Shown in pieces: positions 1 through 35,907 of a stretch of 64,000 nt of DNA; the first letter of the stretch is position 1, and every line of letters begins with the position of its first letter. The position numbers were made by a program, and so were the translations under genes. The stretch is from an uncultured Verrucomicrobiae bacterium (GTDB taxonomy: Bacteria > Verrucomicrobiota > Verrucomicrobiia > Limisphaerales > Palsa-1400): positions 725,858-789,857 of the forward strand of contig CAVXRD010000003.1 of NCBI GenBank assembly GCA_963764165.1, given 5' to 3'. A model generated the notes under the pieces. It was not told the origin of the DNA. It worked only from the letters and a program-made list of their open reading frames with translations, and searched no databases.

Positions 1-3000
1 TGCGCAGGGCGCCCGTCGAATAGGTGGTCGTTTCGGTCGGGCCGTAAAGATCGTAAACCTTCTTCGCTGACGTCTTGGAATAAATTTGCTCCACCAGCGC
101 GGTGGCCAGCGGCTCGCCCGCAAGATTGACAACTTTGACTGAACTGGGCACGCCGTTGATGCGGAGCAATTCGCGCATGGCCGATGGCACGGTGTTGACC
201 AGAGTGACTTCCGAAGCGGCAGGCAGGCCCGGCAGAGCAAGCGCGTTGTCGGCCAGGATAATTTTTCCGCCCCAGCAGAGCGGAACGAACATTTCGTAAA
301 CGGAAAGATCAAAACACATCGAGGTCGACGCGAGCATTCCCGCGTACTCCTCGGGCAGAAACGCATCCTTCGCCCAGCAGACCATGGCCACGGCGTTGCG
401 ATTTTCCAGGGCGACGCCTTTCGGCTGTCCGGTCGAGCCGGAGGTGTAGAGCACGTAAGCCAAATCGTTTGGCCCGGCTTGATTCAAAGGAGCTGTCTTG
501 TCGGAGATTGGCTGGATGTTCTCGACGAGCAGCACCTGGGTTTTCGAGGCGGGAATCAATTCGCGGAAACGCTCGCGTGTCAGCAACACGCGCAATCCAG
601 CATCCTGCGCGATGGCCGCCAGGCGCGCCTTCGGATAAGTGGGATCCAGAGGGACATAAGCTCCGCCCGCTTGAAGTGTTCCGAGAATCCCGGCCACCAT
701 ATCCTCGGAGCGCTCGAGGCAGATGCCCACCAAAGATTGGTTGCCCACCCCTAAAGCTTGCAAACTCTTCGCAATGGTTGCGGCGCGCTCGTAAAGCTCG
801 CGATACGTGAATCGCTTTGTCCCCACCACGAGCGCCTCCGCAGTGGGCGTCCGCGCGGCCTGTTCATTGAACAATTGGGCGAGCGTCTTTTCGCGCGGGT
901 ATTCCAGTTGCGTGCGATTCCATTCATTCAGAATCGTCTCCGATTCCGCCGGGGTCAAAATAGACAGCTTGGACAGGGGCTGTTCCGGCGCCGCGACCAG
1001 AGACTGCAGAGCGGTTTCCACATGCCCCAGCATCCGTTGCGCCGTGGCGCGATTGAACAAATCCGTTGCGTATTCCAATCGGAAAACCGGCCCCAGTTCG
1101 TTGTCAAGAAGGCAGAAACGCAGGTCGTATCCCTCCACGATGGATGGCGCCTCGGTCGCGAAAAAGACCTGCGCAATCGGGTGATATGAAGAATCCGCCG
1201 ATGGGCAAATTTGCGCGATGACGTCCTTGAACGGGATTTGCGAATGCTGGACGGCGGCAGTTTTGGCGGTGCGAACGCGGTCGAGCAAATCACGGCCCGT
1301 CATTTCCGCGGCCATGCGAGTGCGGACCACGGCAATGTTGGCTTTATGGTCACTGCCCGTTTGCAAGCCAACCGGCAGATCGTCCTGCCCGGAATACCGG
1401 TTTAAAACGACATCGAGGGCGGCCAGCGCCAAGGCGGCCCGGTCGCCGGTTTCCATTTTTGACGCCAGCGAGCGCGGCAAAGGCCGGGTTTCTGTGGCCA
1501 CCGCTTTGGATAATACCGCTGGACGAGTGCGGTCGGTGGGCAATTCCAAAAGTGCGGGTGCGCCCGCCAGCTCACGCTTCCAGAAATCCATATCGAGTTC
1601 CCTGCTTTGCTCCAGAACTTTCTTCAGTTCGGCTGCTGTTTCATCCACCCAGGGCTCCTCCAAAACCTTCTCATGGGCGCCCTGGACGATGGTGATATTG
1701 ACTCCGCGGCGGGCGAAATCGCCCCAGCCGTAATCCTGCTCGAAAGAGCACCATAACGGGTGGCCCGGGCTGCGGAACAGGTGAACACGGCCTTCGTATG
1801 GTTTTGGATGAAACTTTCGCAAGGCCAGAATATGGCTTTGCCACAATGCGCGCTGGTCAGCCGGAATGGTGGCAAGGTCAACCAGATTTTCCGCGTCATT
1901 GGCGGCCGAGCCATTGCCGCCGCCGCCAAGCAAACGGGAAAGCTTTTGTTTGACACGGCGCGTTTTCCAGAGAATGAAATCGTGGCGCTGGGCCGGGGTC
2001 CATTGCCGGCAGTAATCGGCCCAGTAAACCAGATTTTTGGCGAACCGCAGCCCCCACGCAGGGGTATAACTGAATTGGGTGTAGCTCGAGTTCGGCGGAG
2101 CGCAATTGAGCAGCGCCAGCAAGGCGACTTTTTCGCCCTGCGCCTCGATTTGCCGCGCCATTTCAAAGGCCACGTTTCCACCGAAACAATATCCGCCGAG
2201 ATAGTAGGGGCCGTGCGGCTGGATGCGGCGCATATCCTTGACATATTGCGCGGCCATTTCCTCCATGGTGTCGAATTCCTGGTGGCCGTTCAGCCCGCGG
2301 GAACTCAATCCGTAGACAGGCTGGTCCGCGCCAAGCCGGCGGGCAAGATTCACGTAGCCCCAGAACATTCCGCCACCCGCTCCGTGGACGAGAAATAACG
2401 GAGGCTGTGTTCCCTTGGGCTGCAACTCGACAACAGACGTTCCGGCGGTGGCGCTTTCGTCGCGAATCTCGTCACGCACCACCACTGCCAGCTTCTCCAC
2501 GGTCGCCGCGGTAAAGATCGCCGCGAGCGGCAGTTTTTTCCCGAAGGCCTTCTCAATGCGCGCGGAAACTTTGACGGCCAGCAGCGAATGGCCGCCCAGA
2601 TCGAAAAAATTATCCTCGATGCCAACGGGTTCGACGCCCAGCACGCTTTCCCAAATGCGGCACAGCTCCAATTCGACAGCGTCCCTCGGTGATGCGTATT
2701 TGCGCGTCAATGTGGGACGGGCGTGGTCCGGCTCCGGCAGGGCGCGGCGATCCACTTTCCCGTTGTGTGTCAGCGGAAGGGATTCGATTTGCACGAACGC
2801 CGAAGGAATCATGTATTCCGGAAGATGTTCGCCAAGAATGGCGCGCAACTGATTCGGCTTGGGCGCGAGTTTTCCATCCGGGACATAGTAGGCCACCAGG
2901 CGGGTCTGGCCGGCTCCGGAGCCGCAGACTTTGACCGCGCATTCGCGCACGCCAGGGCAGCGTCCCATCACGGCTTCGATTTCGCCCAACTCGATGCGAT

Positions 3001-5698
3001 AACCGCGCAGCTTTACCTGGTTATCGATGCGGCCCAAATACTCGACGTTCCCATCCGGGAGCCAGCGGGCGAGGTCCCCGGTGCGATAGAGGCAGACACA
3101 GGGGCTGTCTGCGCTAAATTGATGAAGAACAAATTTCTCAGCGGTGAGCTCCGGACGATTCCAGTAGCCCTTGGCCAACCCGTCGCCACCGGTATACAAC
3201 TCGCCCGGAACGCCAATTGGGACCGGATTGCGATTCGCGTCAAGTATATAAACCTGGGTATTCGAGAGCGGCTTGCCAATCGGCACGTTCGTCGCATTTT
3301 CTGGAATGTCGCGCAGGAGAGCGCAACAGGTGAATGTCGTGTTCTCGGTCGGGCCGTAACCATTGACGAGGCGGTGCGGCGGGCGGTCTTTGAGCACCGC
3401 GCGCACCCATCGCGCATCCAGCGCTTCGCCGCCGGCCATCACGGTCCGCATGGTGGCAAACGCGCCGGGAACCTCCGAGGCCACCTGGCTGAACAATGCC
3501 GAGGTCAGGAACATCGCGGTGATGCCCTGCTCGCGCAATTCCGCCGCAAAATCCTTCGGCGAGAGCGCAATGTCCGTTGCGATGCCGCGCAATTGCCCGC
3601 CGTTGAGCAGCGAGCCCCAAATTTCAAACGTCGCCGCGTCGAAAGACATGTTCGACACTTGGGCGATGCGGTCGGTCGCATCCAGCTGGATATAGTTCGT
3701 CTTGAAAACCAAACGATTCACGCCGAGATGCGGCACGGCCACGCCCTTGGGCTGGCCTGTCGAGCCGGAGGTGTAAATGATATAGGCGGTGTCCGTCGGC
3801 TTGGTGCGATTTGGAAGATTCTCGGCGCTCTCGCGCTGGATTTCGTCCGCATCGGCATCGAGGCAAATCGCGCGCAGGCCGCGATGCGGCAAGTGCCGCA
3901 GCAAGCTTTGCTGTGTCAATAATACACCGGTTCGCGTGTCGCTGAGCATGAAGGCCAGGCGTTCCTTCGGATAACGCGTGTCCATCGGAACATACGCCCC
4001 GCCCGCTTTCAAAATCGCCAGCAGCCCGATGATCATGCTGGGCGAGCGCTCCATGCAAATGGCGATGGGCGCGGCTGGGTCAAATTTCTGCCGCGCGATG
4101 ACGCGGGCAAGCCGATTGGCGCTTTCGTTCAATTCGCCATACGTCATCGTCTCCCGGCCGAACACCAGCGCCACCGCGGCCGGCGTCGCCCGGGCCTGCG
4201 CCTCGAACAATTCGTGAATGCATTGCTGGCGCGGATAATCGGTCGCGTTGTCGTTCCATTCCACCAGCACGCGGCGGCGTTCGGCTTCGCCCAAAATCGG
4301 CAAATCCGAAAGGCGGCGCACCGGTTCGATCACCACGCTGCGAAGCAGATTCTCGTAATGCTCCAGCAGCCGTTCCATGGTCCCCTGCTCGAAAAGGTCG
4401 CAATCGTATTCCACCAAAGCCACCATTGAGCTGCCAAAATCCTGCACCACAAACGTCAAATCGAATTTCGCCGTCCCCGTATCGGTCTCGACGTGCTCCA
4501 CCTGCAATCCCGGCAGCGTCATCGCGCCGTTGTTGACAGTCTTGGCCTGCAGCGCGAACATCAGCCGCGTGAAGGCCAGATGCGCCAGCGAGCGTTCCGG
4601 GCGAAGCGATTCCACGACGCGTTCAAAGGGCAAATCCTGATGCGCGTAAGCGCCGAGGGCCGCAGCCCGCACGCGCTGGAGCAATTCATCAAAGGTCGGG
4701 TTGCCCGCGAGGTTGGCGCGGAGCAAAAGCGTATTGACAAAGAATCCGATGAGCCCCTCGGTTTCAAGGCTGTTGCGCCCCGACACCGGCGTTCCAACCA
4801 CGACGTCCTCAAGGCTTGTGTAACGATGCACCAGCGCCTGGAACGCGGCCATCAACACCATGAAAAGCGAGGACTGCCGTTCCGCGGACAATTGTTTCAA
4901 ACGCGGGCCGAGGTCCGGGCTTAACCGGCGCGTCACCGTCCGTCCCCGAAAAGCCGGAGTGCGCTCGCGCGGCTTGTCAGTCATCAATTCCGTGATCGGC
5001 GGAGAGCCGGCCAGTTGCGTTTTCCAATATTGGAGCTGGTCCTGAACGGACTCGCCGCTGAGCTTCTGCTTTTGCCAGTCGGCGTAGTCGGAGTATTGAA
5101 TCGGCAGCTCGGGCAATTGCGCTTTGCGGTTTTCGATTTGCGCTTTGTAAAATTCTTCCAGCTCGCGAAACAGCACATTCAGCGACCACTCGTCGGAGGC
5201 GATGTGATGCAGATTCAGCACCAGCATGTGATCGTTGGAGGCAAGGCGCACCAATGACGCCCGCAGCAGCGACTCCGTGCTGGCCAGATTGAACGGGCGG
5301 CGGACTTCTTCGCGGATCCATTTGTCCGCCTCCGCCGCATTGGGCATGTCCACGACGCGCAGCGCGAAATCGAATTGGTTCGAAATCACCTGCACCGGCG
5401 TTTCCGCCGAGCAAACGAAACGGGTGCGCAGCGTCTCGTGGCGCTTGATGATGTTCCTCAAGGACTGATCGAGAGCGATTACGTCCAGCGAGCCTGTCAG
5501 GCGCAGGACGGACGGAACATTGTAAAGGGGGCTGTTCGGATGCAGTTGATCCAAAAACCACAACCGCTGCTGGGCGAAGGAAAGCGGGCTTTGGTTTTCG
5601 CGGCGCGAGGCCTGCCGCAAGCGCTCGGCCAATCTGGCTCTTTTCTCTTCCGCGGTCTGTGCGGGCGCTGGTTCTACTGGGGAGGTAGAGGTAGTCAT
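1..5698 (-). CDS. NRPS3 (partial, runs off the left edge): C-A-T-TE-halfC-A...
   Basis: ATG at 5698 overlaps the upstream TGA (ATGA). Absent from the ORF track, consistent with no stop before the edge. Hand translation: MTTSTSPVEP..SFAQQRLWFLDQ, HHIASDEWS, YTSGSTGQPKG, A code DAFFMGGTFK, FFDLGGHSL, TE GYCFG/GAH, FWKRELAGAPALLELPTDR, second A code DLYNNALTYK (Ala-like). Confidence 0.93.
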   Translation of the reverse strand, partial: MTTSTSPVEPAPAQTAEEKRARLAERLRQASRRENQSPLSFAQQRLWFLDQLHPNSPLYNVPSVLRLTGSLDVIALDQSLRNIIKRHETLRTRFVCSAETPVQVISNQFDFALRVVDMPNAAEADKWIREEVRRPFNLASTESLLRASLVRLASNDHMLVLNLHHIASDEWSLNVLFRELEEFYKAQIENRKAQLPELPIQYSDYADWQKQKLSGESVQDQLQYWKTQLAGSPPITELMTDKPRERTPAFRGRTVTRRLSPDLGPRLKQLSAERQSSLFMVLMAAFQALVHRYTSLEDVVVGTPVSGRNSLETEGLIGFFVNTLLLRANLAGNPTFDELLQRVRAAALGAYAHQDLPFERVVESLRPERSLAHLAFTRLMFALQAKTVNNGAMTLPGLQVEHVETDTGTAKFDLTFVVQDFGSSMVALVEYDCDLFEQGTMERLLEHYENLLRSVVIEPVRRLSDLPILGEAERRRVLVEWNDNATDYPRQQCIHELFEAQARATPAAVALVFGRETMTYGELNESANRLARVIARQKFDPAAPIAICMERSPSMIIGLLAILKAGGAYVPMDTRYPKERLAFMLSDTRTGVLLTQQSLLRHLPHRGLRAICLDADADEIQRESAENLPNRTKPTDTAYIIYTSGSTGQPKGVAVPHLGVNRLVFKTNYIQLDATDRIAQVSNMSFDAATFEIWGSLLNGGQLRGIATDIALSPKDFAAELREQGITAMFLTSALFSQVASEVPGAFATMRTVMAGGEALDARWVRAVLKDRPPHRLVNGYGPTENTTFTCCALLRDIPENATNVPIGKPLSNTQVYILDANRNPVPIGVPGELYTGGDGLAKGYWNRPELTAEKFVLHQFSADSPCVCLYRTGDLARWLPDGNVEYLGRIDNQVKLRGYRIELGEIEAVMGRCPGVRECAVKVCGSGAGQTRLVAYYVPDGKLAPKPNQLRAILGEHLPEYMIPSAFVQIESLPLTHNGKVDRRALPEPDHARPTLTRKYASPRDAVELELCRIWESVLGVEPVGIEDNFFDLGGHSLLAVKVSARIEKAFGKKLPLAAIFTAATVEKLAVVVRDEIRDESATAGTSVVELQPKGTQPPLFLVHGAGGGMFWGYVNLARRLGADQPVYGLSSRGLNGHQEFDTMEEMAAQYVKDMRRIQPHGPYYLGGYCFGGNVAFEMARQIEAQGEKVALLALLNCAPPNSSYTQFSYTPAWGLRFAKNLVYWADYCRQWTPAQRHDFILWKTRRVKQKLSRLLGGGGNGSAANDAENLVDLATIPADQRALWQSHILALRKFHPKPYEGRVHLFRSPGHPLWCSFEQDYGWGDFARRGVNITIVQGAHEKVLEEPWVDETAAELKKVLEQSRELDMDFWKRELAGAPALLELPTDRTRPAVLSKAVATETRPLPRSLASKMETGDRAALALAALDVVLNRYSGQDDLPVGLQTGSDHKANIAVVRTRMAAEMTGRDLLDRVRTAKTAAVQHSQIPFKDVIAQICPSADSSYHPIAQVFFATEAPSIVEGYDLRFCLLDNELGPVFRLEYATDLFNRATAQRMLGHVETALQSLVAAPEQPLSKLSILTPAESETILNEWNRTQLEYPREKTLAQLFNEQAARTPTAEALVVGTKRFTYRELYERAATIAKSLQALGVGNQSLVGICLERSEDMVAGILGTLQAGGAYVPLDPTYPKARLAAIAQDAGLRVLLTRERFRELIPASKTQVLLVENIQPISDKTAPLNQAGPNDLAYVLYTSGSTGQPKGVALENRNAVAMVCWAKDAFLPEEYAGMLASTSMCFDLSVYEMFVPLCWGGKIILADNALALPGLPAASEVTLVNTVPSAMRELLRINGVPSSVKVVNLAGEPLATALVEQIYSKTSAKKVYDLYGPTETTTYSTGALR

Positions 5699-8600
5699 TT
5701 GAGTTCCTTCTCATCCAATTCCAACAGCAACTCTTCAACTTCACTGTCGGAAAGCTCGTCGATGCGATCCAAAAGACGCTGGGCTCGCGACGTTTCATTT
5801 CGGCGGAGTTCAATGCCAGGCTGCGAGGCAGTTTGCCGTTCCGCGGACACGACTTCGCGGGCCATTCCCGCGACGGTGGGCGATTCAAAAATGACGCGCA
5901 CCGGCAATTCGATCTGCAATGCCTTGGCGATGCGGGACACAATCTGCGTCGCCAGCAGGGAATGTCCGCCGAGGTGGAAAAAATTGTCGTTGATGCCGAT
6001 CCGGTCCCGTCCGAGGATTTCACGCCAGATGTCCGCGAGCAAAATCTCGGTCGGATTCCGCGGCGCTTCGCAGGCCTCGGCTTCCGCTTTTGCGAGTTCC
6101 TCGGGAGCGGGCAGCGCGCGGCGATCCACTTTTCCGTTGGGCGTCAGCGGCAGCTTGTCCATCGGCACGATATGCGACGGGACCATGTAGGATGGCAGCT
6201 TGATCGAAAGAAATTCGCGCAACTGAAGGCTGGCAGGCGACGTGTCCGCGCGCAGCACGACATAAGCGACCAACTGTTTCGTGCCCGAATGATCTTCCCG
6301 CGCCACCACCAGCGCCTCACGCACCGATTCATGGGTCATCAAGGCGGCCTCGATCTCACCCGGCTCAACCCGGAAGCCGCGAATCTTCACTTGTTCATCT
6401 TTGCGCCCGATGAATTCGACATTTCCATCTGGGAGCCAGCGCGCCAAGTCGCCGGTTCTATAGAGATGCTCCGGGCCGAACGGATTGTGGACAAATTTTG
6501 AATCCGTAAGTTCCGGACGATTCACATAACCGCGCGCGACGCCATCTCCGCCGATGTAAATTTCCCCGATCGCGCCCTGGGCCACGGGCCTCATGGCAGC
6601 GTCCAAAATATAAATTTGCGTGTTCGCGATTGGCCGCCCAATCGGCACTGAGGCGCGGCCAGCCCAATTTTTTGGCACGCGATAGCAGCAGGTAAATGTC
6701 GTGTTTTCGGTCGGGCCGTAACCATTGATAAATTGCGTGTTCTTCAATTCCCGCACGGCCTTGAGCACATGCGGAACGGATAGCGCCTCGCCTCCGGCCA
6801 GCAGGAAACGCAGGCCCTGCAAGCTGGCCAATTGGTTGTCAATCATTTGATTGAACCAGCCGGAGGTCAGCCAGAGGGTCGTGATTTTATGCCGCTGCAC
6901 GAAATGGCCCAATTCCTCCAAGGACGGCATTTGCGGCGGATGCAAAACCAGTTTCGCGCCGTTGGCCAGGGCGCCCCAAATCTCAAAGGTCGACGCGTCG
7001 AACGAAAGAGTCGCCAATTGCAGAAAAACATCGTTTGGGCTGAATTCGACAAAGTCCGTATTCCGCACCAAGCGCCCTATTCCGCGATGTGTCACGGCAA
7101 CCCCCTTCGGCCGGCCAGTCGAGCCGGAGGTATACATGATGTAGGCCATATCCGTCGCTTTGGGCGCGCGGACTGGGCTGTTGCGGAGACGGCCGCCACC
7201 GACCGGCCAATTTGGATTGTCGAGGCAAAGAATCTGTTCGCCAGGGGCTGGAATGGCGCCACGGTAGCGTTCGCGGGTTACGACAAGGCTGGCCTTCGAG
7301 TCTTCCAGCATCATCGCATTGCGGGAAGCTGGATTGGCGGGATCGAGCGGAAGATAAACCGCGCCCGTTTTCAAAATCGCGATGAGCGCCACAATCATGT
7401 CAAGCGAACGCTCGACGCAAAGGCCGATCACCGTCTCCACCCCTGCCCCGGCTTCGGTGAGTTTCGCCGCGACCAGGTTGGCGCGATGATTCAACTCGCC
7501 ATAGGCGATTTCGCCATCTTCGCAGACCAGCGCAATGGCCGCCGGATTTTTGGCAACCTGCTTCTCGAAAAGCTCATGCGCGCAGGCGTCACGCTCGTAT
7601 TCGTTCGCCGCACCCAACCCAAGCTTCATCGATTTCTCGCGCTCCGTGTCGGTTTCCAATTCAAATTCCGAAATGCGCAGCGCGGAATTCGCGAGAATAT
7701 TTTCAACGAGAACGCGGTATTGCTTCGCCCAGCGCTCAATCGAGGGCGCGTCATACAAATCCGTGCTGTATTCGATGCGAATATCGAGATGGCGCCTCCC
7801 TTCCGTGACCAGCAGCGTGAAATCGAATTTCGCGGCGCCGCTCTCGAGTTCGACCCGACTGGCGTTCAAGCCAGGGATCGTCCAGCCGTCCGAAAAATCC
7901 CGCTGCAAGCCAAAAGCCACCTGGAAGAGCGAATTGGCGGCCAAATTCCGTTCACCGCCGAGGGCGCGGACGAGATAATGCAGCGGCGGTTGCTGCCCCG
8001 CGCCAGCGCTCATCGACGTCTCGCGAACGCGCTTGAGCAGCTCCGCAAAGGTGGGATTGCCAGCCAGACCGATCCGCAGGGCGCGAGTATTGACAAAGAA
8101 ACCGATCAGGTTTTCGGTTTCCAATTCGTCGCGTCCCGAGAAGGGGGAACCAATCACCAAATCTTCCTGCAAAGTGGCGCGTTGAAGCAAAATGGCAAAG
8201 GCTGAAAGCAACACCTGGTAGACTGTCGAACCTTCTTTGCGCGCGAAATCCTTCAGTTTCGCCGCGAGCGGCTCGGGCCAGTTTGCGAACAGCGCCGTCC
8301 CGCGATGGCTCGTCATTGCCGGGCGCGGACGGTCTCCCGGAAAACTGGTGAGCGGCGGTGCGCCGGCGAGCTGCTTCTTCCAAAATTCCACGCCTTCCCG
8401 CATCTGATCGCTCTGGGACATTTCGCGCTGCCACAGCGCGAAATTGCCGTATTGAATCGGGAGTTCGGGAAGATCTGACTCACGGCCAGCGTCAAAGGTT
8501 TTATAAAGCGCCGCGAGTTCACGAAGGAAAACGCCCACCGACCATGCATCGGAAATGATGTGATGCATGTTGATGGCGAGAAGATTCTTCCGGTCACTGA

Positions 8601-26438: not shown

Positions 26439-27204
26439 ATTCTGTCGCCTCGACCTTTTTCCATTGCCAGCAGGAGAGCGCGCCGGCTTTTCCTGGAAAA
26501 GCCAGTGCGGCGAGATAACCCCGAGCGGGCTGCAAGACCCGCAAGTTCCATTGGCCGGCGGAAAATCCGGCCTCTTTCGGCAATTTTAGAAAACGCGCCT
26601 CGGCGTCTGTGTCGAAGGAAACTTCGACCTCGCGCAGCAAGTGTCCAATCCCCGCGCCGGTGGCCTTTAAGAGCGCCTCCTTGCGCGTCCAAATTCGGAA
26701 AAAGGCTGCGTCCTTTTCCGATTTTGGAACCGCTTTGAACTCCGCAAATTCACGAGGCGCGCAAAAGACCGCCGCCATTTCCTCCGCATCCTCGACGGGG
26801 CGCAGCCTCTCGATGTCAACGCCGAGAGGCCGATCGAATGTCAGCGCCAGCACAGCGGCGTCCTCGCAATGGGCCAAATTAAACTGCAATCCAGACGCGG
26901 CCAGCGTCGCATTTAACAAGGGCTTCCCGTTGGGACCTGTTGTCAACTGTATGGATTCGGGACCGGCCCCAAGGTAGCGCCCAAGAATGGTGCGCAAGGT
27001 CGCGCGCCCCGTGACGTAACGGCTGCGATCCCGGTCAAAACGAAATGCCGCGGCCCGCTTTTGCTCCTCCGGCGCCAGGACATCCCTTAAATGCGCCAGG
27101 GTGTCCTCCGTTTCGGTCAAGCAAAACGACCAAACATGCACGTCCTCCTGCCCGAGGAGAAAATCATGGGGCGGCGCTGGCCAGGAAAATTCCAAATCAT
27201 CCAT
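26425..27204 (-). CDS. Sfp-type 4'-phosphopantetheinyl transferase
   Basis: GKP, FNLAH, LGVDIE, FFRIWTRKEALLKATG. Confidence 0.95.
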   Translation of the reverse strand: MDDLEFSWPAPPHDFLLGQEDVHVWSFCLTETEDTLAHLRDVLAPEEQKRAAAFRFDRDRSRYVTGRATLRTILGRYLGAGPESIQLTTGPNGKPLLNATLAASGLQFNLAHCEDAAVLALTFDRPLGVDIERLRPVEDAEEMAAVFCAPREFAEFKAVPKSEKDAAFFRIWTRKEALLKATGAGIGHLLREVEVSFDTDAEARFLKLPKEAGFSAGQWNLRVLQPARGYLAALAFPGKAGALSCWQWKKVEATEYEYS

Positions 27205-29207: not shown

Positions 29208-29468
29208 CTCAGCGACAAGAGTGCCGGAAATTTAGTTTCGGCGTATGGGTGAATACCCCACTCCGCCCCGTCCTCCATCTTTTCACAATCTCACCGATAA
29301 TGGGCGGTAATCGAGGTCCGCGTGATTCCGCAGGGCCCAAATGCGGTTTATTCGGGGAAAAAACCAAGGGTGCAATAGGGTGAAATAGGATGCAATGCCC
29401 TGGCCCTGGATCGGGTAGGAATGAAGGGATGGAGAGGCGCAGGTAAGATTGCCGCCGGTCCGCTTTGA

Positions 29469-29655
29469 GCGGAGCGCGGCTGTGTCGAAGACCAGCCGCA
29501 GCAACTCTCAAACAACTGACAGCGATTCTTGTTGCGGCCACCTCCAAAAAACAGATTAAAACTTCGGAACTGCGACTGGCGAGCCTGGAGATCTTTCCAA
29601 CGCGCCACTCGTTTCGACGCGGCTGCGGCTGGTCTTCGACACAGCCGCGCTCCGC
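29469..29655. repeat. REP doublet (REPIN-like): 34-bp perfect inverted repeat with a 119-bp spacer
   Basis: GCGGAGCGCGGCTGTGTCGAAGACCAGCCGCAGC at 29469-29502 and its reverse complement at 29622-29655. Confidence 0.85.
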
Positions 29656-29840
29656 TGTCGGCCTGCGTCCACCACGCGTTTTCAATCACACCCCTCGAAT
29701 CAGAGACCGATTGCCTCGTCTCGCGCCTTTCAAAATGTCAAAGAACCCGCCCTGACGGGCACAGGGAGAAAAATAAGCTCAAAAATCTTTTTTGTCAATT
29801 ATGCTTGCAGTTACACTGTTTCGTGGTATTTAGTGAGCGT

Positions 29841-30855
29841 ATGACAACCGTATCATCGATTGTTCAGCCGGGGCCGGTGGCGAAAACAGCGCCGGGCCAG
29901 GAGTGCTGCGGGCCGACCGGCCGCGCCCGCACCAGCAAGATCGCGCGTCTGCCCGCCGATATCCGGGCTGAATTGAACGAGCGGCTTCTGGAAGCGGAGC
30001 CGCCTGCCGCCATTCTGGAATGGCTCAACGGCCTCCCGGAGGTGCAGCGCGTGCTGGCGCAATCTTTTGACTCCCAGCCCATCACGGAAGTCAACCTCTC
30101 GCGCTGGCGCCAGGGCGGTTACGCCGGGTGGCTGGAGCAGCGGAACACGCAGGAGGCGGTGGAAGCCGTGGCGACGGCCGCCGCCGGGGTGGAAGGTCCG
30201 GCGGCGGAAAATCTCAACCGGCATCTGGCGGTCGTGCTGAGCGCGCGGCTGTTCGTGGAGATGCAGCGCTGCGGGGCCATGCCCGACGGGCCGGACAAGA
30301 CGGCGTCGCTGCACCAATTGGTGGTGTCTGTACGCCCTGTTGCGCCGAGCGGAGTATTATGGCGAGAAGGTGCGGCTCGACCGGGAGAAGCTGAAAATGC
30401 TGGAGGAGCGCCTGCGGCAAGAGGCGGAAAAAAACCGCAAGCGCTCGCCCGAGGAACAGGAGGACCGCATCAATAAAATCCTGGGCACAGGCCGCTTCGC
30501 CGCCAACTGGAACAACGACCTAAGACGATGGGAAGGGCCGGGAGCGGCGATGCGGTATGAGGAGGAGGAAGTCACGCTCCAGGTGCGGACGGAAATGAAG
30601 CGGCGCTATCCCAATGGTTTCCCGGAAGGCTACCGCCCTCCCTACGGCGACCCATTGCCCGTTTATCCTAAGCCTGTTGACACCCCAAAGAGTGTCAATC
30701 ATTCAGAGCAGAAGCCCAGTGTTCCAGCGCGCAGCGATGACGATAGCCCGCCCAGCAATCCCAACGGGAGAATGGCGAGAAAAGGTAGCGGACACAACAC
30801 AGGCCACCATGGGTGGATGTTGGGCGACAATCGACAAATGAACAAATTGCCATGA
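29841..30855 (+). pseudogene. DUF3486/Mu gp27-like orphan, split by a +1 frameshift near 30337
   Basis: RTSKIARLP..RAELNERL..NLSRWRQGGY..W; frames rejoin as VSVR/LLRRAEYYGEK if one C of CCC is removed. Confidence 0.65.
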
Positions 30856-31167
30856 CGACGCTTATGCGCGAGGGCAATGCGGCTTTTACGGCCCCGGCGC
30901 GAGCGGCGGAAATGGCAGCGGATGAAGACTGATTCCCATTTCCGAATACAAAAGTGCCAAAAGTGAGGACTGACGTAGGCATGACGTATGCACAGGTTCT
31001 TAATGACTACCGAAGGGCTGGTTCGGGAGTGAAAATCGGCGCCGAGTGCGCGCATTCCCGGAAAAAGCGTTTTGGCACAACGATTTAACTTGCGGATCCG
31101 GGTGGGGGGAAATAGAAAATCATTAAATGGAAATGCCAGTCAAACCAATAACGAATTGAGCGTTCTT

Positions 31168-32940
31168 ATGAAATCCACAAAACAATCCCCAAGCGTATTG
31201 CTAACACTCAATAGAATTCTCCCCGCCCTAACGGGAGGATTGTTACTTTTCTCGGGCACTGCCCTGCGCGCTCAGACAAACTCCATTCTGGACCTCGGCA
31301 CTTTGGGAGGGGCCAGCAGCTCGCCGAACGGAATAAACAACAACGGTCAGGTTTGTGGCTCAGCATATACCACTAATGGGGAACAGCACGCTTTCCTCTA
31401 CACCAACGGAACCATGATAGATTTGGGCACGTTGGGAGGCTCCTTCGCCAGCGGGTCAGCAATAAACAACAGCGGGCAAGTTGCCGGCGAATCATATACG
31501 CCCGGTAATTCATCCTCCTCTACGCATGCTTTCCTCTACACATCTGGAGCCTTGCAAGATTTGGGCACTTTGGGCGGATCCTACAGCGAGGCGGACGCAA
31601 TGAACGACAGCGGCTGGGTTGTCGGCGCTTCATATACGGCTGGTAATGCTCTAAATCCTTTCCTCTACACCAATGGAGTCATGTATGACTTGGGTACATT
31701 GGGAGGAGACTGGGGCGCGGCGAGCGGCGTAAACAACAAGGGTCAGGTTAGTGGCGTAGCATATACCGCTAATGTGGAAGAGCACGCTTTCCTCTACACC
31801 TCTGGAGCCATGCTAGATTTGGGCACTTTGGGAGGGTCGGTTAGCTATGCGAACGGAATAAACAACAACGGTCAAGTTACTGGCGGTTCATATACCGCCA
31901 GTGGGGCTACCCATGCTTTCCTCTACACCTCTGGAGCCATGCAAGATTTGGGCACTTTGGGGGGGGACACCAGCTTTGCGGAAGGAATAAACGACAACGG
32001 CCAGGTTGTCGGCTGGTCTGACACCTCTGATGGCACACAGGATGCTTTCCTCTACATCAATGGCGTGATGATCGACCTCAATAATCTGCTTCCGGCAAAT
32101 TCCGGTTGGACTCTCGAAAATGCTGTGGCTATCAACGATTTGGGGCAAATCGTCGGACAGGGTTATAATGCGGCCACCGGCCAAGACGATGCATTTTTGC
32201 TCAACATCTACTCGCCGCTCTCCGTAACTGCCCAACCGCAATCGTTGGAGGTCAATGCTTTCACCACCGCATCATTTTCCGTGACTGCAACCGGCACGCC
32301 ACCTCTGGGCTACCAATGGTCGGTGAACGGCACAAACATCCCGGGGGCTACTTCCAGCACTTTGACGGTTTCAAATGTGGTGCAAACAAATTTAGGAACG
32401 TATTCCGTATTAGTCACCAGCGCTTCCGGCTCGACCAACAGTTCTAATGCAACGCTCTCGATGTATCCTTACTTGATCGCTCCATTTGCCGGGGTCGATA
32501 CGTATTGGGGCCAAACAAACACCTTGAGCGTAGGTGCCTGGGGAACGGGGCCGTTGAGTTACCAATGGTTTGACAACGGGAACGCCATCGACAGTGCTAC
32601 GAATTCTACTTTGACGCTGTCCAACATTCAATTCACAAATGCCGGACTTTATTCAGTAGTCGTGTCAAGCGCGTTGGGCAGCGTCACAAATACCCCGAAT
32701 CAGGTCATTGTGAACCCGGCCAATGTCGGAGTTCAACTCTGCCCGAATGTCGTGATTCAGGGGACCGTCGGCTACAATTTCATCATTCAGAGCACGACTA
32801 ATCTAGCCGACACGAATTCATGGATAACTCAAGCCAACCTGACTCTAACTCAACCAGTGCAGTTCTGGGATGACACCAATACAGACGTCAACCAGCCAAG
32901 CAATCCACGGAAGTTTTATCGGGTGTTGCCTGGACAATAA
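31168..32940 (+). CDS. Secreted HAF-repeat (DLGTLGG) beta-propeller + Ig domains + FYRV tail
   Basis: Signal peptide, about 7 HAFLYT..DLGTLGG..INNNGQV repeats, two YQW/YSV Ig domains, ends RKFYRVLPGQ. Confidence 0.92.
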   Translation: MKSTKQSPSVLLTLNRILPALTGGLLLFSGTALRAQTNSILDLGTLGGASSSPNGINNNGQVCGSAYTTNGEQHAFLYTNGTMIDLGTLGGSFASGSAINNSGQVAGESYTPGNSSSSTHAFLYTSGALQDLGTLGGSYSEADAMNDSGWVVGASYTAGNALNPFLYTNGVMYDLGTLGGDWGAASGVNNKGQVSGVAYTANVEEHAFLYTSGAMLDLGTLGGSVSYANGINNNGQVTGGSYTASGATHAFLYTSGAMQDLGTLGGDTSFAEGINDNGQVVGWSDTSDGTQDAFLYINGVMIDLNNLLPANSGWTLENAVAINDLGQIVGQGYNAATGQDDAFLLNIYSPLSVTAQPQSLEVNAFTTASFSVTATGTPPLGYQWSVNGTNIPGATSSTLTVSNVVQTNLGTYSVLVTSASGSTNSSNATLSMYPYLIAPFAGVDTYWGQTNTLSVGAWGTGPLSYQWFDNGNAIDSATNSTLTLSNIQFTNAGLYSVVVSSALGSVTNTPNQVIVNPANVGVQLCPNVVIQGTVGYNFIIQSTTNLADTNSWITQANLTLTQPVQFWDDTNTDVNQPSNPRKFYRVLPGQ

Positions 32941-32983
32941 AGACCTATCGCGGAAATCAAAGCGGCAGATACTTGTGTCCTCG

Positions 32984-33046
32984 CTTTTTGCGCTAGATGA
33001 GACCGGCTGGAATTTCGGCGGCTCTAAGAGGGGCTACCGCCTTCGC
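32984..33046 (+). repeat. 63-bp direct repeat, copy 1
   Basis: CTTTTTGC.CTA.A.GAGACCGGCTGGAATTTCGG.GGCTC..CCGCCTTCGC shared with 34109-34171. Confidence 0.85.
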
Positions 33047-33187
33047 TGTCGCTTCGGCGCTACAAGTCCGCCTTGGCCGAGGCTTCGGCGCGACAAGTCC
33101 GGATAGGCGTTTTTCGAGCTTTGGGCGGGGCGAAGTCGAAAGCATTGTCCGTCGCCCGGTGCCGAGATGCGGTAGGCATGAACGGAT

Positions 33188-33416
33188 ATGGATTACCGTA
33201 AGTTCATCACCATTGAGGCTGGCAAGCGCGGCGGGCGTCCGTGCATTCGGAGGACGCGGATCGCCGTGGCCGACGCGCTTGGCTGGCTGGCTGCCTGCGG
33301 GGATGACGCACGCTGAAATCATTGGCGACTTTCCTGAATTGACGCAGAAAGACGTTCGGGCTTGCCCCGAGTACGCCGCTGAACGTGAACGCCGCCTCGT
33401 CACTGTGGCCGAATGA
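33188..33416 (+). pseudogene. DUF433 antitoxin, frameshifted
   Basis: MDYRKFITIEAGKRGGRPCIRRTRIAVADALGWLA / AGMTHAEIIGDFPELT; frame break in a GCTG run near 33290. Confidence 0.8.
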
Positions 33417-33574
33417 AGCTGCTCTTATACCAGAACTTGAGTTTCAAATTGGCGAAGAAGCTGGGGGATGTATTTCCAGGGTCGGAGCAAGTAAGATTGG
33501 TCGGGATGCATGAAGCCGAAGACGACCGTTCCCGGCCTGTTCGCGGGCTTGCAAACAGGTGCGGGCCGCTTTAA
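33413..33574 (+). pseudogene. DUF5615 PIN-like toxin, truncated
   Basis: MKLLLYQNLSFKL..FPGSEQVR..EAEDD then a stop at 53 aa; catalytic Asp of DQNL replaced by Tyr. Confidence 0.72.
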
Positions 33575-33583
33575 TTCTTTTCC

Positions 33584-33781
33584 ATGAGTGCTGAGGAATT
33601 GGAGTCGGAAGTGACACGGCTGTCGAAACCGGAATTGGCTGCTTCTTCTCGATGGTTCGAGGAATTCGCCGCGGACTTATGGGATAAGCAGATCGAAACG
33701 GACATCGCTTCTGGCAAGCTCGATCACCTCGCGAGGCAGGCCGATGAGCATTTTGATGCAGGCCGCTGCACTCCCCTTTGA
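33584..33781 (+). CDS. Antitoxin of a ParE-like pair
   Basis: WF.EF..D.WDKQIE.D..SGKLD.LA; overlaps the toxin start. Confidence 0.78.
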   Translation: MSAEELESEVTRLSKPELAASSRWFEEFAADLWDKQIETDIASGKLDHLARQADEHFDAGRCTPL

Positions 33782-34035
33782 ACCACTTTGCCACTCCTGA
33801 GTATTTGTTTCATTAACGCCGGCTGGCGCCGGACCTTCGCGAATTGGCCGACGCAAAATTCCAGTTGCTGAAATCAGACCCACGCCATCCATCGCTCCGG
33901 TTCAAGAAAACTGGCATCCTTTGGTCCGTTCGGATTGGAGTGCGACATCGCGCGTTAGCCAGAGAACGAAAGGAAGGCTTTGTTTGGTTCTGGATAGGCA
34001 GGCATGACGCTTACGAGCAGATTCTGAAAAGATGA
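33778..34035 (+). pseudogene. ParE/RelE-like toxin with a premature stop
   Basis: MNHFATPEYLFH*RRL..DPRHPSLRFKK..WSVRIG..WFWIG.H; in-frame TAA at 33814-33816. Confidence 0.75.
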
Positions 34036-34108
34036 AGCCCTTCGCCAGCCTCCTAGAAATCTGGCGCTGCCATTTGATGCTGATGGCCATGCGCCGGTGT
34101 CACCCTAA

Positions 34109-34452
34109 CTTTTTGCACTAAAAGAGACCGGCTGGAATTTCGGTGGCTCCGAGACGAGTTCCCGCCTTCGCGGAAGGCTTCCCCCTTCGCTAAAGCTTCC
34201 TCACTTCGCTAAAGCTATGGAGGACGAGACGGACGACAGGAGGCTTCCGCCTTCGCGCTTTGGCGTGATCGAGCAGGAAACTTCACGCCGTGGGCGCGGA
34301 CCTGCCTGCCCAAAAGGGGCTAAAGACCGACGGCAAGCGATTGAGGAGAACTGGCCCTCAACACAACATCCCGGGCGTCGCGGGGGTCGCTCCTACGGAG
34401 CTTGGAACATTTTTGTGGCGGGTTTCTACAACGATGCCGCGCCTGCGGCGCT
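34109..34452. repeat. Direct-repeat copy 2, nested CTTCGCTAAAGCT palindromes and a GCTCCTACGGAGC doublet
   Basis: Direct repeat 34109-34171; CTTCGCTAAAGCT twice at about 34185-34216; hairpins at 34386-34402 and 34436-34452. Confidence 0.7.
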
Positions 34453-34498
34453 TCGGCGGCGGCCAGGCCTTCCTGTCGCCTCAAGTCGCTGAACCCGT

Positions 34499-35722
34499 TT
34501 ATGAAATTGCCGCTGCCTGATAACGGTCTGACCGGGCAGAGCCGCCCGTCGTGGGTCGGCCGGAATTGGCCGCCTTCGCAAGATCGGCGTCGCGGGTCAT
34601 CAATCGGAAAACATCGGGAATCGCAGTAACGCCGTCCGGGATGGTCGGCTGGTTGGTGCAAAGGGAAGCGTAGCTGTGGGCGTCCGTTGGGTGGTAACCG
34701 TGCATGCCGCGAATGGGCCTGGCGCCCATGTGGCTCGGGACAATCAGAACCCCTTCCTTGGCCAGGAAAACCAATTCGCCGAAATAACGGTCTTTGAAGA
34801 GAGTGCCCATTTTCTCCAGTTCTTCATCCGGCACGATGCGCCCAAGCTCAACCTTTTGCAGGGCGCTCGTCACCAGCCAGCGGGCGCGGTCGTTGAAGAA
34901 CCAGAATCGCGCCATTGTGGAATCGTAGACCACGGCATAGTCATTCGGCACACGCAGTTGCAGTGCGTCGATTTCTTTCTTGAGATCCAGGATGGTATCG
35001 CAATTGGCCATGCCGTGATCGCTAAATACGTAAAGACGCACTTCTTCGTAATGCCCTTTGGCCGCCGCCAGAAGCTGCCCGATCCATTCCTCGTAGACGC
35101 GGAGCTTCACGGGAATTTCCGGGGATTTATTTCCCAGCATGTGAAGCATCCCGTCGAGGCCCGGCCAGTATTGAAAAGCAAAATCGATGCGCTCGGATTT
35201 TATTTCGCTCACCAAGGCGCTGAGGTTGACATGTTCGTCCAGCGTCGGATCGCTGACGAAATATGGGATTTCCCGCTCCACCAAATAATCGAAAATATTC
35301 GGCCCGCGATTGAGCCCCTTGGGCTGGAGGGGATTTTTGGTCTCGCTGAAGTTGTAGAGGGAGATTTGGTTGAACGGGATGTTGTAGAGATCGAAGTATC
35401 CGCGAAAACTGAGCCGGTTCTTGATAAATTTGGAAAGATACCGGCGGAAAATTCGGCGGCTGGTCAGGGCGGTGGGCAGCCATTGCAGGGGCTTGAGGGA
35501 CCTGAAGGGAGAGCGTTCCGGCTCGTAAACAAAATAGTTCCAATTGCGATGCTCCACGGGCCAGCGGCCTGACAAGATGGAAGGCACGCAGGCCGAGCTG
35601 TAGCCGAAAACCGAGGTCAGGCGCCGGCGGTTCGGCGCCATCTTGTTCATGAACGGATCGCTCTTGATGATCTCCCAGCCGCAGGCGTCAATAAAAACAA
35701 ATAGAGGCAGAACTGGCTTCAC
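34499..35722 (-). CDS. Alkaline phosphatase superfamily (NPP/phosphodiesterase-like) protein, no signal peptide
   Basis: FVFIDACGW, GYSSACVPSILSG, LDGMLH, FSDHGM, GMHGY. Confidence 0.88.
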   Translation of the reverse strand: MKPVLPLFVFIDACGWEIIKSDPFMNKMAPNRRRLTSVFGYSSACVPSILSGRWPVEHRNWNYFVYEPERSPFRSLKPLQWLPTALTSRRIFRRYLSKFIKNRLSFRGYFDLYNIPFNQISLYNFSETKNPLQPKGLNRGPNIFDYLVEREIPYFVSDPTLDEHVNLSALVSEIKSERIDFAFQYWPGLDGMLHMLGNKSPEIPVKLRVYEEWIGQLLAAAKGHYEEVRLYVFSDHGMANCDTILDLKKEIDALQLRVPNDYAVVYDSTMARFWFFNDRARWLVTSALQKVELGRIVPDEELEKMGTLFKDRYFGELVFLAKEGVLIVPSHMGARPIRGMHGYHPTDAHSYASLCTNQPTIPDGVTAIPDVFRLMTRDADLAKAANSGRPTTGGSARSDRYQAAAIS

Positions 35723-35907
35723 GCTCTGCCCTCCGCGGCGCGAGCGGACCTCAGCATCTGCGAAGAACGGACTTTTCGGCCGGAGCGGGCCGGCAGCCTG
35801 GCAATCGACCCTCTCTCAATCGGGACAACTCTCGGTTTGAGGTCACCCGGCGCGAAGGCAACGGGAATGAAGGTCACGGGCGCGCGTCTTGTGATTAGGT
35901 TCAACAT
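35719..35907 (-). CDS. 62-aa basic hypothetical protein coupled to the AP gene
   Basis: SD GAAAGGA before ATG 35907; its stop overlaps the GTG start (GTGA). Confidence 0.5.
   Translation of the reverse strand: MLNLITRRAPVTFIPVAFAPGDLKPRVVPIERGSIARLPARSGRKVRSSQMLRSARAAEGRA

What the first reader, a model, noticed from the sequence alone, without database searches (positions are those of the whole stretch)
1..35907. Candidate new system: NRPS line physically wired to a glycan-polymer operon
Seen: all minus-strand, AP/NPP enzyme > GT2 > NTase-fold > Sfp PPTase > WecB/TagA-STAS-STAS > GT4 > NRPS1-3. The PPTase that the NRPS carrier domains need sits inside the glycosyltransferase operon, overlapping both neighbours (27197/27204 and 26425/26438). 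Known: WecB/TagA enzymes act on undecaprenyl-linked intermediates of teichoic acid/ECA/EPS, not on small-molecule aglycones, and the Dlt system uses an A domain and carrier to acylate a wall polymer. Inference: a short peptide (X-Gly-Val-Ile/Val, plus Ala) is transferred onto a lipid-linked or secreted glycan, giving a peptide-decorated EPS or glycopeptidolipid.
Basis: partly seen in the sequence, partly recalled or inferred. Interest (0 to 1): 0.88.

Follow-up and report, generated by a model that had tools for sequence, protein, structure and literature searches.

The report
Peptide-tagged glycan with swapped flippase
In a Verrucomicrobiota genome, a peptide assembly line sits beside surface-sugar genes, and related genomes carry either its peptide exporter or the usual sugar flippase but never both, so the peptide is likely grafted onto the lipid-linked sugar unit and the exporter likely flips it, a route not found in the papers searched and still untested.

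Summary
The genes are real, but the block is not one operon here: plus-strand inserts of 5.3 kb and 9.75 kb split it; it is contiguous in G001 and G011. AP-GT2-NTase-WecB/STAS-GT4 is the core of a widespread Verrucomicrobiota Wzy/Wza polysaccharide locus. Its priming transferase, Wzy-like gene, Wza and a CE4-type deacetylase lie 57-70 kb left of the window. NRPS3 ends in C-FkbH-T-TE and is followed by a PvdE-type exporter. Among 71 genomes with the NTase, 34 have this exporter, 34 the locus's Wzx, none both. The cysteine-thioesterase NRPS family agrees with the deacetylase in 67 of 71. Best reading (0.5): cysteine thioesterases move short peptides onto a deacetylated sugar of the undecaprenyl-linked unit, and the exporter flips it. 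Against: only 2-3 well-supported independent contrasts (not significant), other Wzx-family genes exist in trans, and no product is known. The scan noted NRPS-in-glycan loci on other DNA before; none of the listed notes reports the exporter/flippase swap.

The parts
34499..35722 (-). Alkaline-phosphatase-superfamily (NPP-type) enzyme, no evident signal peptide; core gene of the glycan locus
   Evidence: PF01663 E 1.9e-17; weak PDB matches all NPP/ENPP; seen in 48 of 80 NTase loci
28323..29207 (-). GT2 glycosyltransferase
   Evidence: PF00535; 62 of 80 NTase loci
27197..28345 (-). Nucleotidyltransferase-fold protein with helical HEPN-like domain, aminoglycoside-NTase-like; marker gene of the locus
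   Evidence: No Pfam/NCBIfam hit; invariant or near-invariant GGGYGRGEG, D65, E67, E103; model and fold searches
26425..27204 (-). Sfp-type PPTase; the only tblastn match in the genome
   Evidence: PF01648, PF22624; single hit at E<0.01 in G000
24990..26438 (-). WecB/TagA/CpsF glycosyltransferase fused to two STAS domains
   Evidence: PF03808 plus 2x PF01740; TIGR00696 over cut-off
23828..24973 (-). GT4 glycosyltransferase, travels with WecB-STAS
   Evidence: PF00534
9066..14144 (-). NRPS1: A(Thr-type)-T-C(dehydrating, modAA)-A(Gly)-T; likely start at 14078
   Evidence: Pfam; codes; C domain best PDB matches McyA E 4e-121 and AmbE 2e-63
5695..8991 (-). NRPS2: C-A(Val)-T
   Evidence: orthologue code DAFWLGGTFK
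1..5698 (-). NRPS3, 3605 aa, continues 5.1 kb beyond the left end of the window (G000:C3:720738-731555): C-A(Ile/Val)-T-TE(Cys)-half C-A(Ala)-T-C-FkbH-T-TE(Cys)
   Evidence: (TIGR01686 FkbH 304 bits, cut-off 147)
1..1 (-). OUTSIDE the window, 5.1-6.8 kb left of base 1 (G000:C3:719077-720741; coordinates here are only a placeholder): PvdE/SyrD-type cyclic-peptide ABC exporter, proposed flippase; overlaps the NRPS3 stop
   Evidence: TIGR01194 518.8 bits, cut-off 286.2; distribution
1..1 (.). OUTSIDE the window, 57-70 kb left of base 1 (G000:C3:655646-669051; coordinates here are only a placeholder): other half of the glycan locus: Wza, chain-length-regulator/Wza fusion, GT2, methyltransferase, Wzy/O-antigen-ligase family, GT4, DUF2334 deacetylase (C3:664419-665240), IS fragment, LbH protein, priming sugar-phosphate transferase, GT4
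17083..23679 (+). Insert, not conserved at this place: two paralogous secreted-type LamG/Ig/lectin proteins
   Evidence: absent between GT4 and NRPS1 in G001 and G011
29209..34498 (.). Insert between AP and GT2: repeat element pair, HAF-repeat/Ig protein (31072-32940, +), small ORFs
   Evidence: AP and GT2 are under 120 nt apart in G001, G011, G025

Best explanation
The window holds half of a Verrucomicrobiota Wzy/Wza-type surface-polysaccharide locus plus three NRPS genes, whose short peptides are likely transferred by cysteine thioesterases onto a deacetylated sugar of the lipid-linked repeat unit, which the neighbouring peptide-exporter-family ABC transporter would then flip in place of Wzx. 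Steps. (1) Shown: genes for a priming transferase, WecB/TagA and several further GTs, a Wzy-like protein and Wza are on this contig. Inferred: they build an undecaprenyl-PP oligosaccharide. (2) Shown: DUF2334 has a CE4 fold and invariant Asp-Asp, His-x3-His residues. Inferred: it unmasks an amine on the unit, as ArnD does on a lipid-linked sugar (ArnD's role recalled). (3) Shown: module order and signature codes. Predicted: line 1 makes dehydrated Thr-Gly-Val-Ile/Val, whose free N-terminal dehydrobutyrine would hydrolyse to a 2-oxobutyryl cap; line 2 makes alanyl-glycerate. (4) Shown: both lines end in GxCxG thioesterases. Inferred: these pass the acyl groups to the sugar amine or a hydroxyl. 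(5) Shown: the exporter and the locus's Wzx were never found together. Inferred: the exporter flips the loaded unit for Wzy polymerisation and Wza export. (6) The NTase/NPP pair is core to the locus with or without NRPS; my guess is sugar O-nucleotidylation followed by phosphodiester cleavage.
For: Exporter vs Wzx among 71 genomes with the NTase subfamily: 34 exporter, 34 Wzx, 0 both, 3 neither (tally). The exporter orthologue is in 0 of 43 NTase-negative relatives. In 201 phylum genomes it is found at over 55% identity only in G000 and G105, the only two whose NTase-profile match is below E 1e-100. In G299, G307 and G308 the exporter gene sits head-to-head with WecB-GT4 next to Wzz/Wza with no NRPS beside it. 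The same tetrapeptide line occurs with no exporter orthologue in Wzx genomes G012, G030, G053, G289, so the exporter follows the glycan rather than the peptide. TE family (E<1e-40) vs deacetylase: 39 both, 28 neither, 3 TE only, 1 deacetylase only. All 6 Wzx genomes with the deacetylase carry an A-T-TE gene directly upstream of Wzx (in G020 cut by the contig end); a lone Pro-type A-T-TE that only hydrolysed would be futile (inference). Cys nucleophile in 49 of 52 distinct TE stretches; the 3 Ser ones are in deacetylase-negative genomes. NRPS genes within about 10 kb of core glycan genes in at least 24 of 42 TE-positive genomes, in four arrangements. NRPS A domains in 38 of 50 NTase genomes vs 30 of 201 phylum genomes. 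Precedent for TE-catalysed transfer between molecules: FrsA (PMC7794379, abstract).
Against: Kin are not independent: on the NTase tree each label needs 6 changes, but starred branches force only 2-3, and independent-pair sign tests give p 0.5-1. All 6 exporter genomes tested hold other PF13440 (Wzx/MurJ-type) genes elsewhere, which could flip in trans. The exporter is a full member of the cyclic-peptide exporter family and scores far below the PglK cut-off (70 vs 1000 bits). 33 of 44 phylum genomes with any NTase homologue have no NRPS A domain over the cut-off. NRPS and glycan genes are on different contigs in G022 and G025. Exceptions: G262, G267, G303 have the TE family without the deacetylase; G299 the reverse; G296 has an NRPS beside the NTase but no TE-family or deacetylase match. 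The characterised GxCxG TE of ObiF makes a beta-lactone and releases it (PMC6668435, passages). TE1 has Asn where 31 of 52 stretches have Asp/Glu. Nearly all genomes are MAGs; no product or phenotype is known.
Confidence: 0.5

Rival explanations
1. The NRPSs make free secreted peptides (a keto-acyl tetrapeptide and a small alanyl-glycerate ester) exported by the PvdE-type transporter. They cluster with the polysaccharide genes only because both serve one stress or biofilm programme; the exclusion of Wzx reflects two or three old locus lineages.
For: Exporter is over the TIGR01194 cut-off and directly follows the last TE in most loci seen. Few independent contrasts. Other Wzx-family genes exist in trans. 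STAS, SpoIIE-type, DUF892 and trehalase-type genes nearby fit a stress island.
Against: The same peptide line lacks this exporter in Wzx genomes. The exporter stays with WecB when the NRPS is elsewhere. Standalone A-T-TE genes sit directly upstream of Wzx. The TE family tracks the deacetylase across both exporter types.
Confidence: 0.22
2. The peptide is attached to the glycan as proposed, but the ABC transporter is not the flippase: a Wzx-family protein encoded elsewhere flips the unit, and the ABC protein exports peptide or a by-product for attachment on the periplasmic side.
For: Deacetylase/TE agreement holds regardless of exporter type. Other PF13440 genes in 6 of 6 exporter genomes tested.
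Against: Does not explain 0 of 71 genomes with both; the TE that would activate the peptide is cytoplasmic (inference from its place in the NRPS).
Confidence: 0.13
3. The product is a discrete glycopeptide rather than a decorated polymer: the PF04932 protein works as an O-antigen-ligase-like transferase that moves the oligosaccharide from undecaprenyl-PP onto the peptide or another acceptor.
For: PF04932 covers ligases as well as polymerases (recalled); best NCBIfam match is an O-glycosylation ligase model, far below cut-off. Line 2 would leave a free glycerate hydroxyl (inference).
Against: A chain-length-regulator/Wza fusion and Wza are conserved in the locus, which points to a polymer; it leaves the deacetylase unexplained.
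Confidence: 0.1
4. The two lines acylate each other or cyclise, for example to a glycerate beta-lactone by the terminal Cys thioesterase, giving a reactive small molecule unrelated to the glycan.
For: GxCxG TE of ObiF forms a beta-lactone from a beta-hydroxy thioester (PMC6668435, passages); glycerate has a 3-hydroxyl; FrsA joins two lines.
Against: Cys TEs also end modules loading Val/Ile, Ala, Thr or Pro-type residues, most with no beta-hydroxyl, and FkbH is in a minority of the loci.
Confidence: 0.05

Closest known systems
Wzx/Wzy-dependent exopolysaccharide or capsule pathway (priming transferase, WecB/TagA, Wzx, Wzy, Wzz/Wzc, Wza; pathway logic recalled)
   Same: Priming transferase PF02397, WecB/TagA, several GTs, Wzy/ligase family PF04932, chain-length regulator and Wza on this contig; Wzx in the sister loci.
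   Different: The locus's Wzx is not found in this genome; a cyclic-peptide exporter is found instead in 34 of 71 genomes; multi-module NRPSs, an NTase/NPP pair and a STAS-fused WecB come with it.
DltABCD D-alanylation of teichoic acids (recalled)
   Same: Adenylation domain plus carrier used to acylate an envelope polymer; the A-T-TE genes of the Wzx loci come closest.
   Different: Here condensation domains build peptides of 2-4 units and a Cys thioesterase, not an MBOAT/DltD relay, is the proposed transferase; the proposed acceptor is the lipid-linked unit in the cytoplasm.
Conserved Roseobacter NRPS/PKS/glycosyltransferase/PPTase cluster (PMC4337385, passages: 28 of 57 genomes, product not characterised)
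   Same: Conserved orphan assembly line with a glycosyltransferase and PPTase, no known product.
   Different: Four genes with a PKS as described there; no exporter/flippase exchange or deacetylase is mentioned in the passages read. Homology to this locus was not tested.
Clostridioides difficile type B flagellin peptidylamido-glycan (PMC5207245, PMC5207246, passages)
   Same: A short peptide amide-linked to an amino sugar of a surface glycan: the product class proposed here exists.
   Different: Assigned to a FemAB-like acyltransferase and an ATP-grasp ligase; no NRPS is mentioned in PMC5207246; protein-linked, not polymerised.
FrsA (FR900359) and ObiF (obafluorin) thioesterases (PMC7794379 abstract; PMC6668435 passages)
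   Same: TE-catalysed transfer between molecules (FrsA); GxCxG cysteine nucleophile (ObiF).
   Different: Acceptors are a depsipeptide core or the substrate's own hydroxyl, not a sugar.
PvdE/SyrD cyclic-peptide exporters and the ABC flippase PglK (functions recalled)
   Same: Sequence member of the PvdE/SyrD family (TIGR01194); proposed to work like PglK.
   Different: Not a PglK-family member by score; its gene follows the glycan locus across loci whose NRPSs differ widely.

Membership tests
Wzx/Wzy-dependent polysaccharide locus | Priming polyprenyl-phosphate sugar-1-phosphate transferase | tested here: met
   PF02397 E 4.6e-67; TIGR03025 293 bits vs cut-off 295.6
Wzx/Wzy-dependent polysaccharide locus | Wzy-like polymerase | tested here: inconclusive
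   PF04932 over cut-off; the family also covers ligases
Wzx/Wzy-dependent polysaccharide locus | Chain-length regulator and Wza export protein | tested here: met
   PF02563/SLBB in two genes; weak chain-length-determinant matches in the fusion
Wzx/Wzy-dependent polysaccharide locus | Wzx flippase belonging to the locus | tested here: not met
   No match to the sister loci's Wzx at E<=1e-40 in G000; two weak PF13440 matches on another contig
Cyclic-peptide ABC exporter (TIGR01194) | Score over curated cut-off | tested here: met
   518.8 vs 286.2 bits
PglK-type ABC flippase | Score over NF050066 cut-off | tested here: not met
   70 vs 1000 bits
PglK-type ABC flippase | Flips a lipid-linked oligosaccharide | not testable with these tools
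   Needs a transport assay
Dlt system | Standalone DltA and DltC with DltB (MBOAT) and DltD | tested here: not met
   A and T domains are parts of modular NRPSs with C domains; no MBOAT or DltD family hit among the window and flanking proteins scanned; the whole genome was not searched for them
Dehydrating (modAA) condensation domain | Closest solved relatives are McyA and AmbE C domains; HHxxxDG; Ser/Thr-type donor module | tested here: met
   E 4e-121 and 2e-63, next hit 1.5e-43; HHSCMDG; Thr-type code, canonical DFWNIGMVHK in orthologues (code meaning recalled)
CE4/NodB-type deacetylase (DUF2334 protein) | CE4 fold with Asp-His-His metal triad motifs | tested here: met
   Model pLDDT 73 (one of five models good); CE4 matches to E 1.2e-6, highest query TM 0.62 to ArnD among rows shown; D8, D9, H91, H95 invariant in 35 of 35 rows covering them
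CE4/NodB-type deacetylase (DUF2334 protein) | De-N-acylates the repeat unit | not testable with these tools
   Needs an enzyme assay
Polymerase-beta-superfamily nucleotidyltransferase | NTase fold, G-G/S motif and three catalytic carboxylates | tested here: met
   (Z 11.2, rmsd 3.9, 220 aligned, 10% identity); Foldseek best E 2.5e-3
Mycobacterial-type glycopeptidolipid pathway | Fatty-acyl start unit and reductive release, MmpL export (recalled) | tested here: not met
   NRPS1 starts with an A domain; release by TE; ABC exporter
Roseobacter orphan NRPS/PKS/GT/PPTase cluster | NRPS, PKS, glycosyltransferase and PPTase genes, homologous to that cluster | not tested
   No PKS domain in the window's NRPSs; no sequence comparison with Roseobacter genes was run

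The most novel reading that the evidence does not exclude
Many soil and freshwater Verrucomicrobiota build a second, peptidoglycan-like envelope polymer: NRPS-made stem peptides are amide-linked to undecaprenyl-bound repeat units, flipped by a repurposed PvdE-family exporter and polymerised by Wzy.
Probability: 0.2. Interest if true: 0.92.

Novelty: new variant of a known kind. Interest (0 to 1): 0.74.

Why it matters
If right, it gives modular NRPSs a structural role (making stem peptides for a surface glycan), shows that a family annotated everywhere as 'cyclic peptide exporter' can stand in for Wzx, and explains many of the NRPS clusters found in 38 of 50 of these genomes, which genome mining would score as small-molecule clusters. 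It names testable enzymes: a Cys thioesterase as sugar N-acyltransferase, DUF2334 as the amine-unmasking step, and an NTase/NPP pair of unknown chemistry that marks a locus with homologues in 44 of 201 sampled phylum genomes. It also offers a concrete model for orphan NRPS/GT/PPTase clusters such as the Roseobacter one.

Tried and rejected
PPTase-in-operon as proof of coupling: rejected, position varies. One continuous operon: rejected for this genome. Shared sigma-54 promoter: one two-mismatch site 22 nt before GT2, none before AP, NRPS1 or the orthologues checked; dropped. My recollection that the C. difficile flagellin glycan uses an NRPS was not borne out: no mention in PMC5207246; the papers name an ATP-grasp ligase. 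NTase: no Pfam, NCBIfam or PDB sequence match; ESM Atlas gave only unnamed Verrucomicrobiota clusters. DUF2334: no PDB sequence match. Earlier scan notes by sequence: none for the NTase. Independent-pair tests were not significant; the careful tree did not finish, so both trees are quick trees. Paper searches with no description of this system; the library lacks most subscription papers, and the primary paper on dehydrating C domains was not held. No complex prediction, metagenome scan or representative search was run. No supplementary files were opened.
Full report
1. What is in the sequence. The window is G000:C3:725858-789857 of a 7.0 Mb, five-contig genome, 97% complete. Related loci are titled Verrucomicrobiota almost throughout, and the nearest named NTase relatives on the tree include a Limisphaerales record. 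They do not form one minus-strand run: 5,291 nt lie between AP and GT2 and 9,750 nt between GT4 and NRPS1, filled with plus-strand genes for secreted-type HAF/Ig and LamG/Ig/lectin proteins, small ORFs and a repeat pair. In G001 (same genus) and G011 (same family) the order AP, GT2, NTase, (PPTase), WecB-STAS, GT4, NRPS1-3, ABC, GH15 is contiguous, so the inserts are local.

2. The NRPS. NRPS1 is A-T-C-A-T, NRPS2 C-A-T, NRPS3 (3605 aa, ending 5.1 kb left of the window) C-A-T-TE-half C-A-T-C-FkbH-T-TE. Signature codes, read by alignment and interpreted from recalled code tables, are DVWNIAMVHK (Thr-type; canonical DFWNIGMVHK in orthologues of G007, G012, G015, G030), Gly, Val, Ile/Val and Ala. 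The NRPS1 C domain is closest to McyA (E 4e-121) and AmbE (2e-63), well above the next hit. PMC10880069 (passages) describes AmbE-type domains as dehydrating, many converting Ser/Thr to Dha/Dhb before condensation. With no upstream C domain the residue has a free amine, so the dehydro product would be expected to hydrolyse to a 2-oxobutyryl cap (chemical inference, not from a paper read). FkbH keeps its DxDxT and Cys motifs, predicting a glyceryl unit joined to Ala. Both TEs have GYCFGG. Across the relatives' loci fetched up to, 49 of 52 distinct TE stretches have Cys at the nucleophile position. A cyclic-peptide exporter over the TIGR01194 cut-off overlaps the NRPS3 stop.

3. The glycan locus. 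The NTase has no family hit, but its model matches aminoglycoside nucleotidyltransferases. Using it as a marker, the best 80 of 523 confirmed genome loci show AP in 48, GT2 in 62, Wzx in 31, WecB in 29, Wzy-like in 21, DUF2334 in 21, Wza in 18 and NRPS genes in 8, within at most 10 kb on often short contigs (neighbours counted at 40% identity or more). This is a Wzy/Wza-type polysaccharide locus. In G000 the missing half lies 57-70 kb left of the window: Wza, chain-length-regulator/Wza fusion, GT2, methyltransferase, PF04932 protein, GT4, DUF2334, priming transferase, GT4. In G001 and G011 both halves and the NRPS lie within about 55 kb of one contig. NTase homologues, mostly distant, occur in 44 of 201 phylum genomes, among GT, Wza or AP genes in most of the 19 genomes inspected; only 11 of the 44 have an NRPS A domain over the cut-off. 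The NTase/AP core therefore does not depend on an NRPS.

4. Is the NRPS tied to it? Of 61 genomes (G000 and 60 relatives), 18 have the NTase and 13 an NRPS1 C-domain orthologue at 42% identity or more; 12 of the 13 are NTase-positive (exception G019, a fragment). Of 50 of the 80 NTase genomes searched, 38 have an NRPS A domain over the cut-off, against 30 of 201 in the phylum sample; genome size was not controlled. NRPS genes lie within about 10 kb of core glycan genes in at least 24 of the 42 genomes with this TE family; the others were not all inspected. Four arrangements recur: after GT4 (G000, G001, G011); head-to-head with WecB (G052, G057, G269, G280, G281, G287, G295, G297, G300); a single A-T-TE gene directly upstream of Wzx (G007, G012, G020, G030, G053, G289); and near the NTase or Wza (G003, G105, G262, G264, G290, G303). 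In G022 and G025 NRPS and glycan genes are on different contigs. The predicted peptides differ widely between loci, and several NRPSs include long unassigned stretches, probably PKS modules (not scanned).

5. Two patterns that point to chemistry. First, among 71 NTase genomes (G000 and 17 relatives, 50, G105, G156, G225; G019 left out as NTase-negative) the exporter orthologue is in 34, the locus's Wzx in 34, both in 0, neither in 3 (G015, G058, G273, all fragmented). No NTase-negative relative has the exporter (0 of 43). In G299, G307 and G308 it sits head-to-head with WecB with no NRPS beside it, while the same Thr-Gly-Val-Ile/Leu line runs without it in Wzx genomes. Second, the TE family (best hit E<1e-40) and DUF2334 agree in 67 of 71 (39 both, 28 neither; G262, G267, G303 TE only; G299 DUF2334 only), across both transporter types. 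Three genomes whose best TE match is weak (E 1e-26 to 1e-31: G266, G272, G279) were counted negative; counted positive, agreement would be 64 of 71. DUF2334 models as a CE4 deacetylase with invariant metal ligands; its highest TM-score among the rows shown is to ArnD.

6. Limits. On quick NTase trees each label needs 6 changes, but well-supported branches force only 2-3, and independent-pair tests cannot reach significance. G262 (Wzx) lies inside a 99-supported exporter clade, so the split is not a single event, but it is few events. Every exporter genome tested (6 of 6) has other Wzx/MurJ-type genes. Most genomes are MAGs, so absence is 'not found'. No product data exist.

7. Mechanism. Most likely (0.5): an undecaprenyl-linked unit is built by the priming transferase, WecB/TagA and the GTs; DUF2334 frees an amine; the two Cys thioesterases transfer a keto-acyl tetrapeptide and alanyl-glycerate onto the unit; the ABC protein flips it; Wzy and Wza polymerise and export it. 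Gene content, domain order, motifs and distributions are shown; every chemical step is inferred. Attachment to the glycan by any route, summing the readings that include it, is about 0.7. The NTase/NPP pair is unexplained; sugar nucleotidylation followed by cleavage is a guess from the fold. The main rival (0.22) is a free secreted peptide co-regulated with the polysaccharide.

8. Known relatives. The pathway logic is Wzx/Wzy; the decoration logic resembles Dlt (both recalled). TE transfer between molecules is known from FrsA (PMC7794379, abstract) and a GxCxG TE from ObiF (PMC6668435, passages). Peptidylamido-glycans exist on C. difficile flagellin but are assigned to an ATP-grasp ligase and a FemAB-like acyltransferase (PMC5207245, PMC5207246, passages). 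A conserved orphan NRPS/PKS/GT/PPTase cluster is known in Roseobacter (PMC4337385, passages). PMC10212144 (passages) gave only C-domain subtype names. Other papers were seen as search listings only. Searches found no description of this locus or of a peptide exporter replacing Wzx; subscription papers and supplements were not seen and may bear on that claim. Earlier scan notes describe NRPS or PKS lines inside glycan loci of other genomes, one with a cysteine release domain; these are unchecked notes and were read after the patterns above were found.

9. Verdict. Observation partly confirmed, interpretation partly supported and extended. A new variant of Wzy-dependent glycan synthesis, probably NRPS-decorated, with a likely flippase swap. 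Interest 0.74.

Noticed in passing
window 29468-29502 and 29622-29656: Perfect 35-nt inverted pair; a 33-nt motif from it has 145 matches genome-wide at up to 4 substitutions, a REP-like repeat family.
   Followed up: partly
window 17083-19230 and 19639-23679 (+): Paralogous secreted-type LamG/Ig/lectin genes sharing upstream elements, N-termini and terminator-like hairpins; repeat spacing shifts from 4455 to 4454 nt near 19186, suggesting a one-base frameshift in the last codons of the first gene.
   Followed up: no
window 15063-15595 and 33413-34035 (+): Small ORF pairs that resemble toxin-antitoxin modules (resemblance recalled; no NCBIfam hit at 1e-6) inside both inserts.
   Followed up: partly
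L102:625-2628, L191:18996-20000 and many loci: A standalone STAS gene and a HATPase-SpoIIE fusion precede AP in many sister loci; with the STAS domains on WecB this suggests partner-switch control of a glycosyltransferase. G000 has only a remote SpoIIE match on another contig.
   Followed up: partly
L130:11809-15298, L126, L127, L185: Pairs of DUF5122 beta-propeller genes sit beside or between the NRPS genes in Wzx-type genomes; secreted-type genes also occupy the slot before NRPS1 in G001, G022, G025.
   Followed up: no
L175 and L176 (G307, G308): Ser-type A domain, FkbH-containing protein and probable dehydrogenase genes with a C-A(Ala)-T-TE(Cys) gene, far from the glycan locus that holds their exporter; may supply an amino- or hydroxymalonyl-type unit (inference).
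   Followed up: no
L170, L171, L172, L173, L179: Longer NRPS3 forms with an extra Lys/Orn-type module after the internal TE, and one protein with two internal TEs each followed by A-T.
   Followed up: partly
G000:C2 about 2952700-2957300 (L145:12730-17337): Second NRPS locus: A-T, cytochrome P450 and a C domain split over two frames; it would depend on the window's PPTase, the only match in the genome.
   Followed up: no
L149:9739-11607: Standalone FkbH-like gene inside another polysaccharide locus of G000.
   Followed up: no
L001:5035-8581 (+), 11-15 kb left of the window: Epimerase, a second WecB/TagA gene and a B12-dependent radical SAM gene, between the two halves of the locus; link unknown.
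   Followed up: no
L030 and L132 (G007): Wzx, GT2 and one NRPS1 copy are broken into several frames in this single-contig genome; decay or read error.
   Followed up: no
L083:7866-9107 and 8 other loci: Some Wzx-type loci carry a polysaccharide pyruvyl transferase, another kind of decoration.
   Followed up: no
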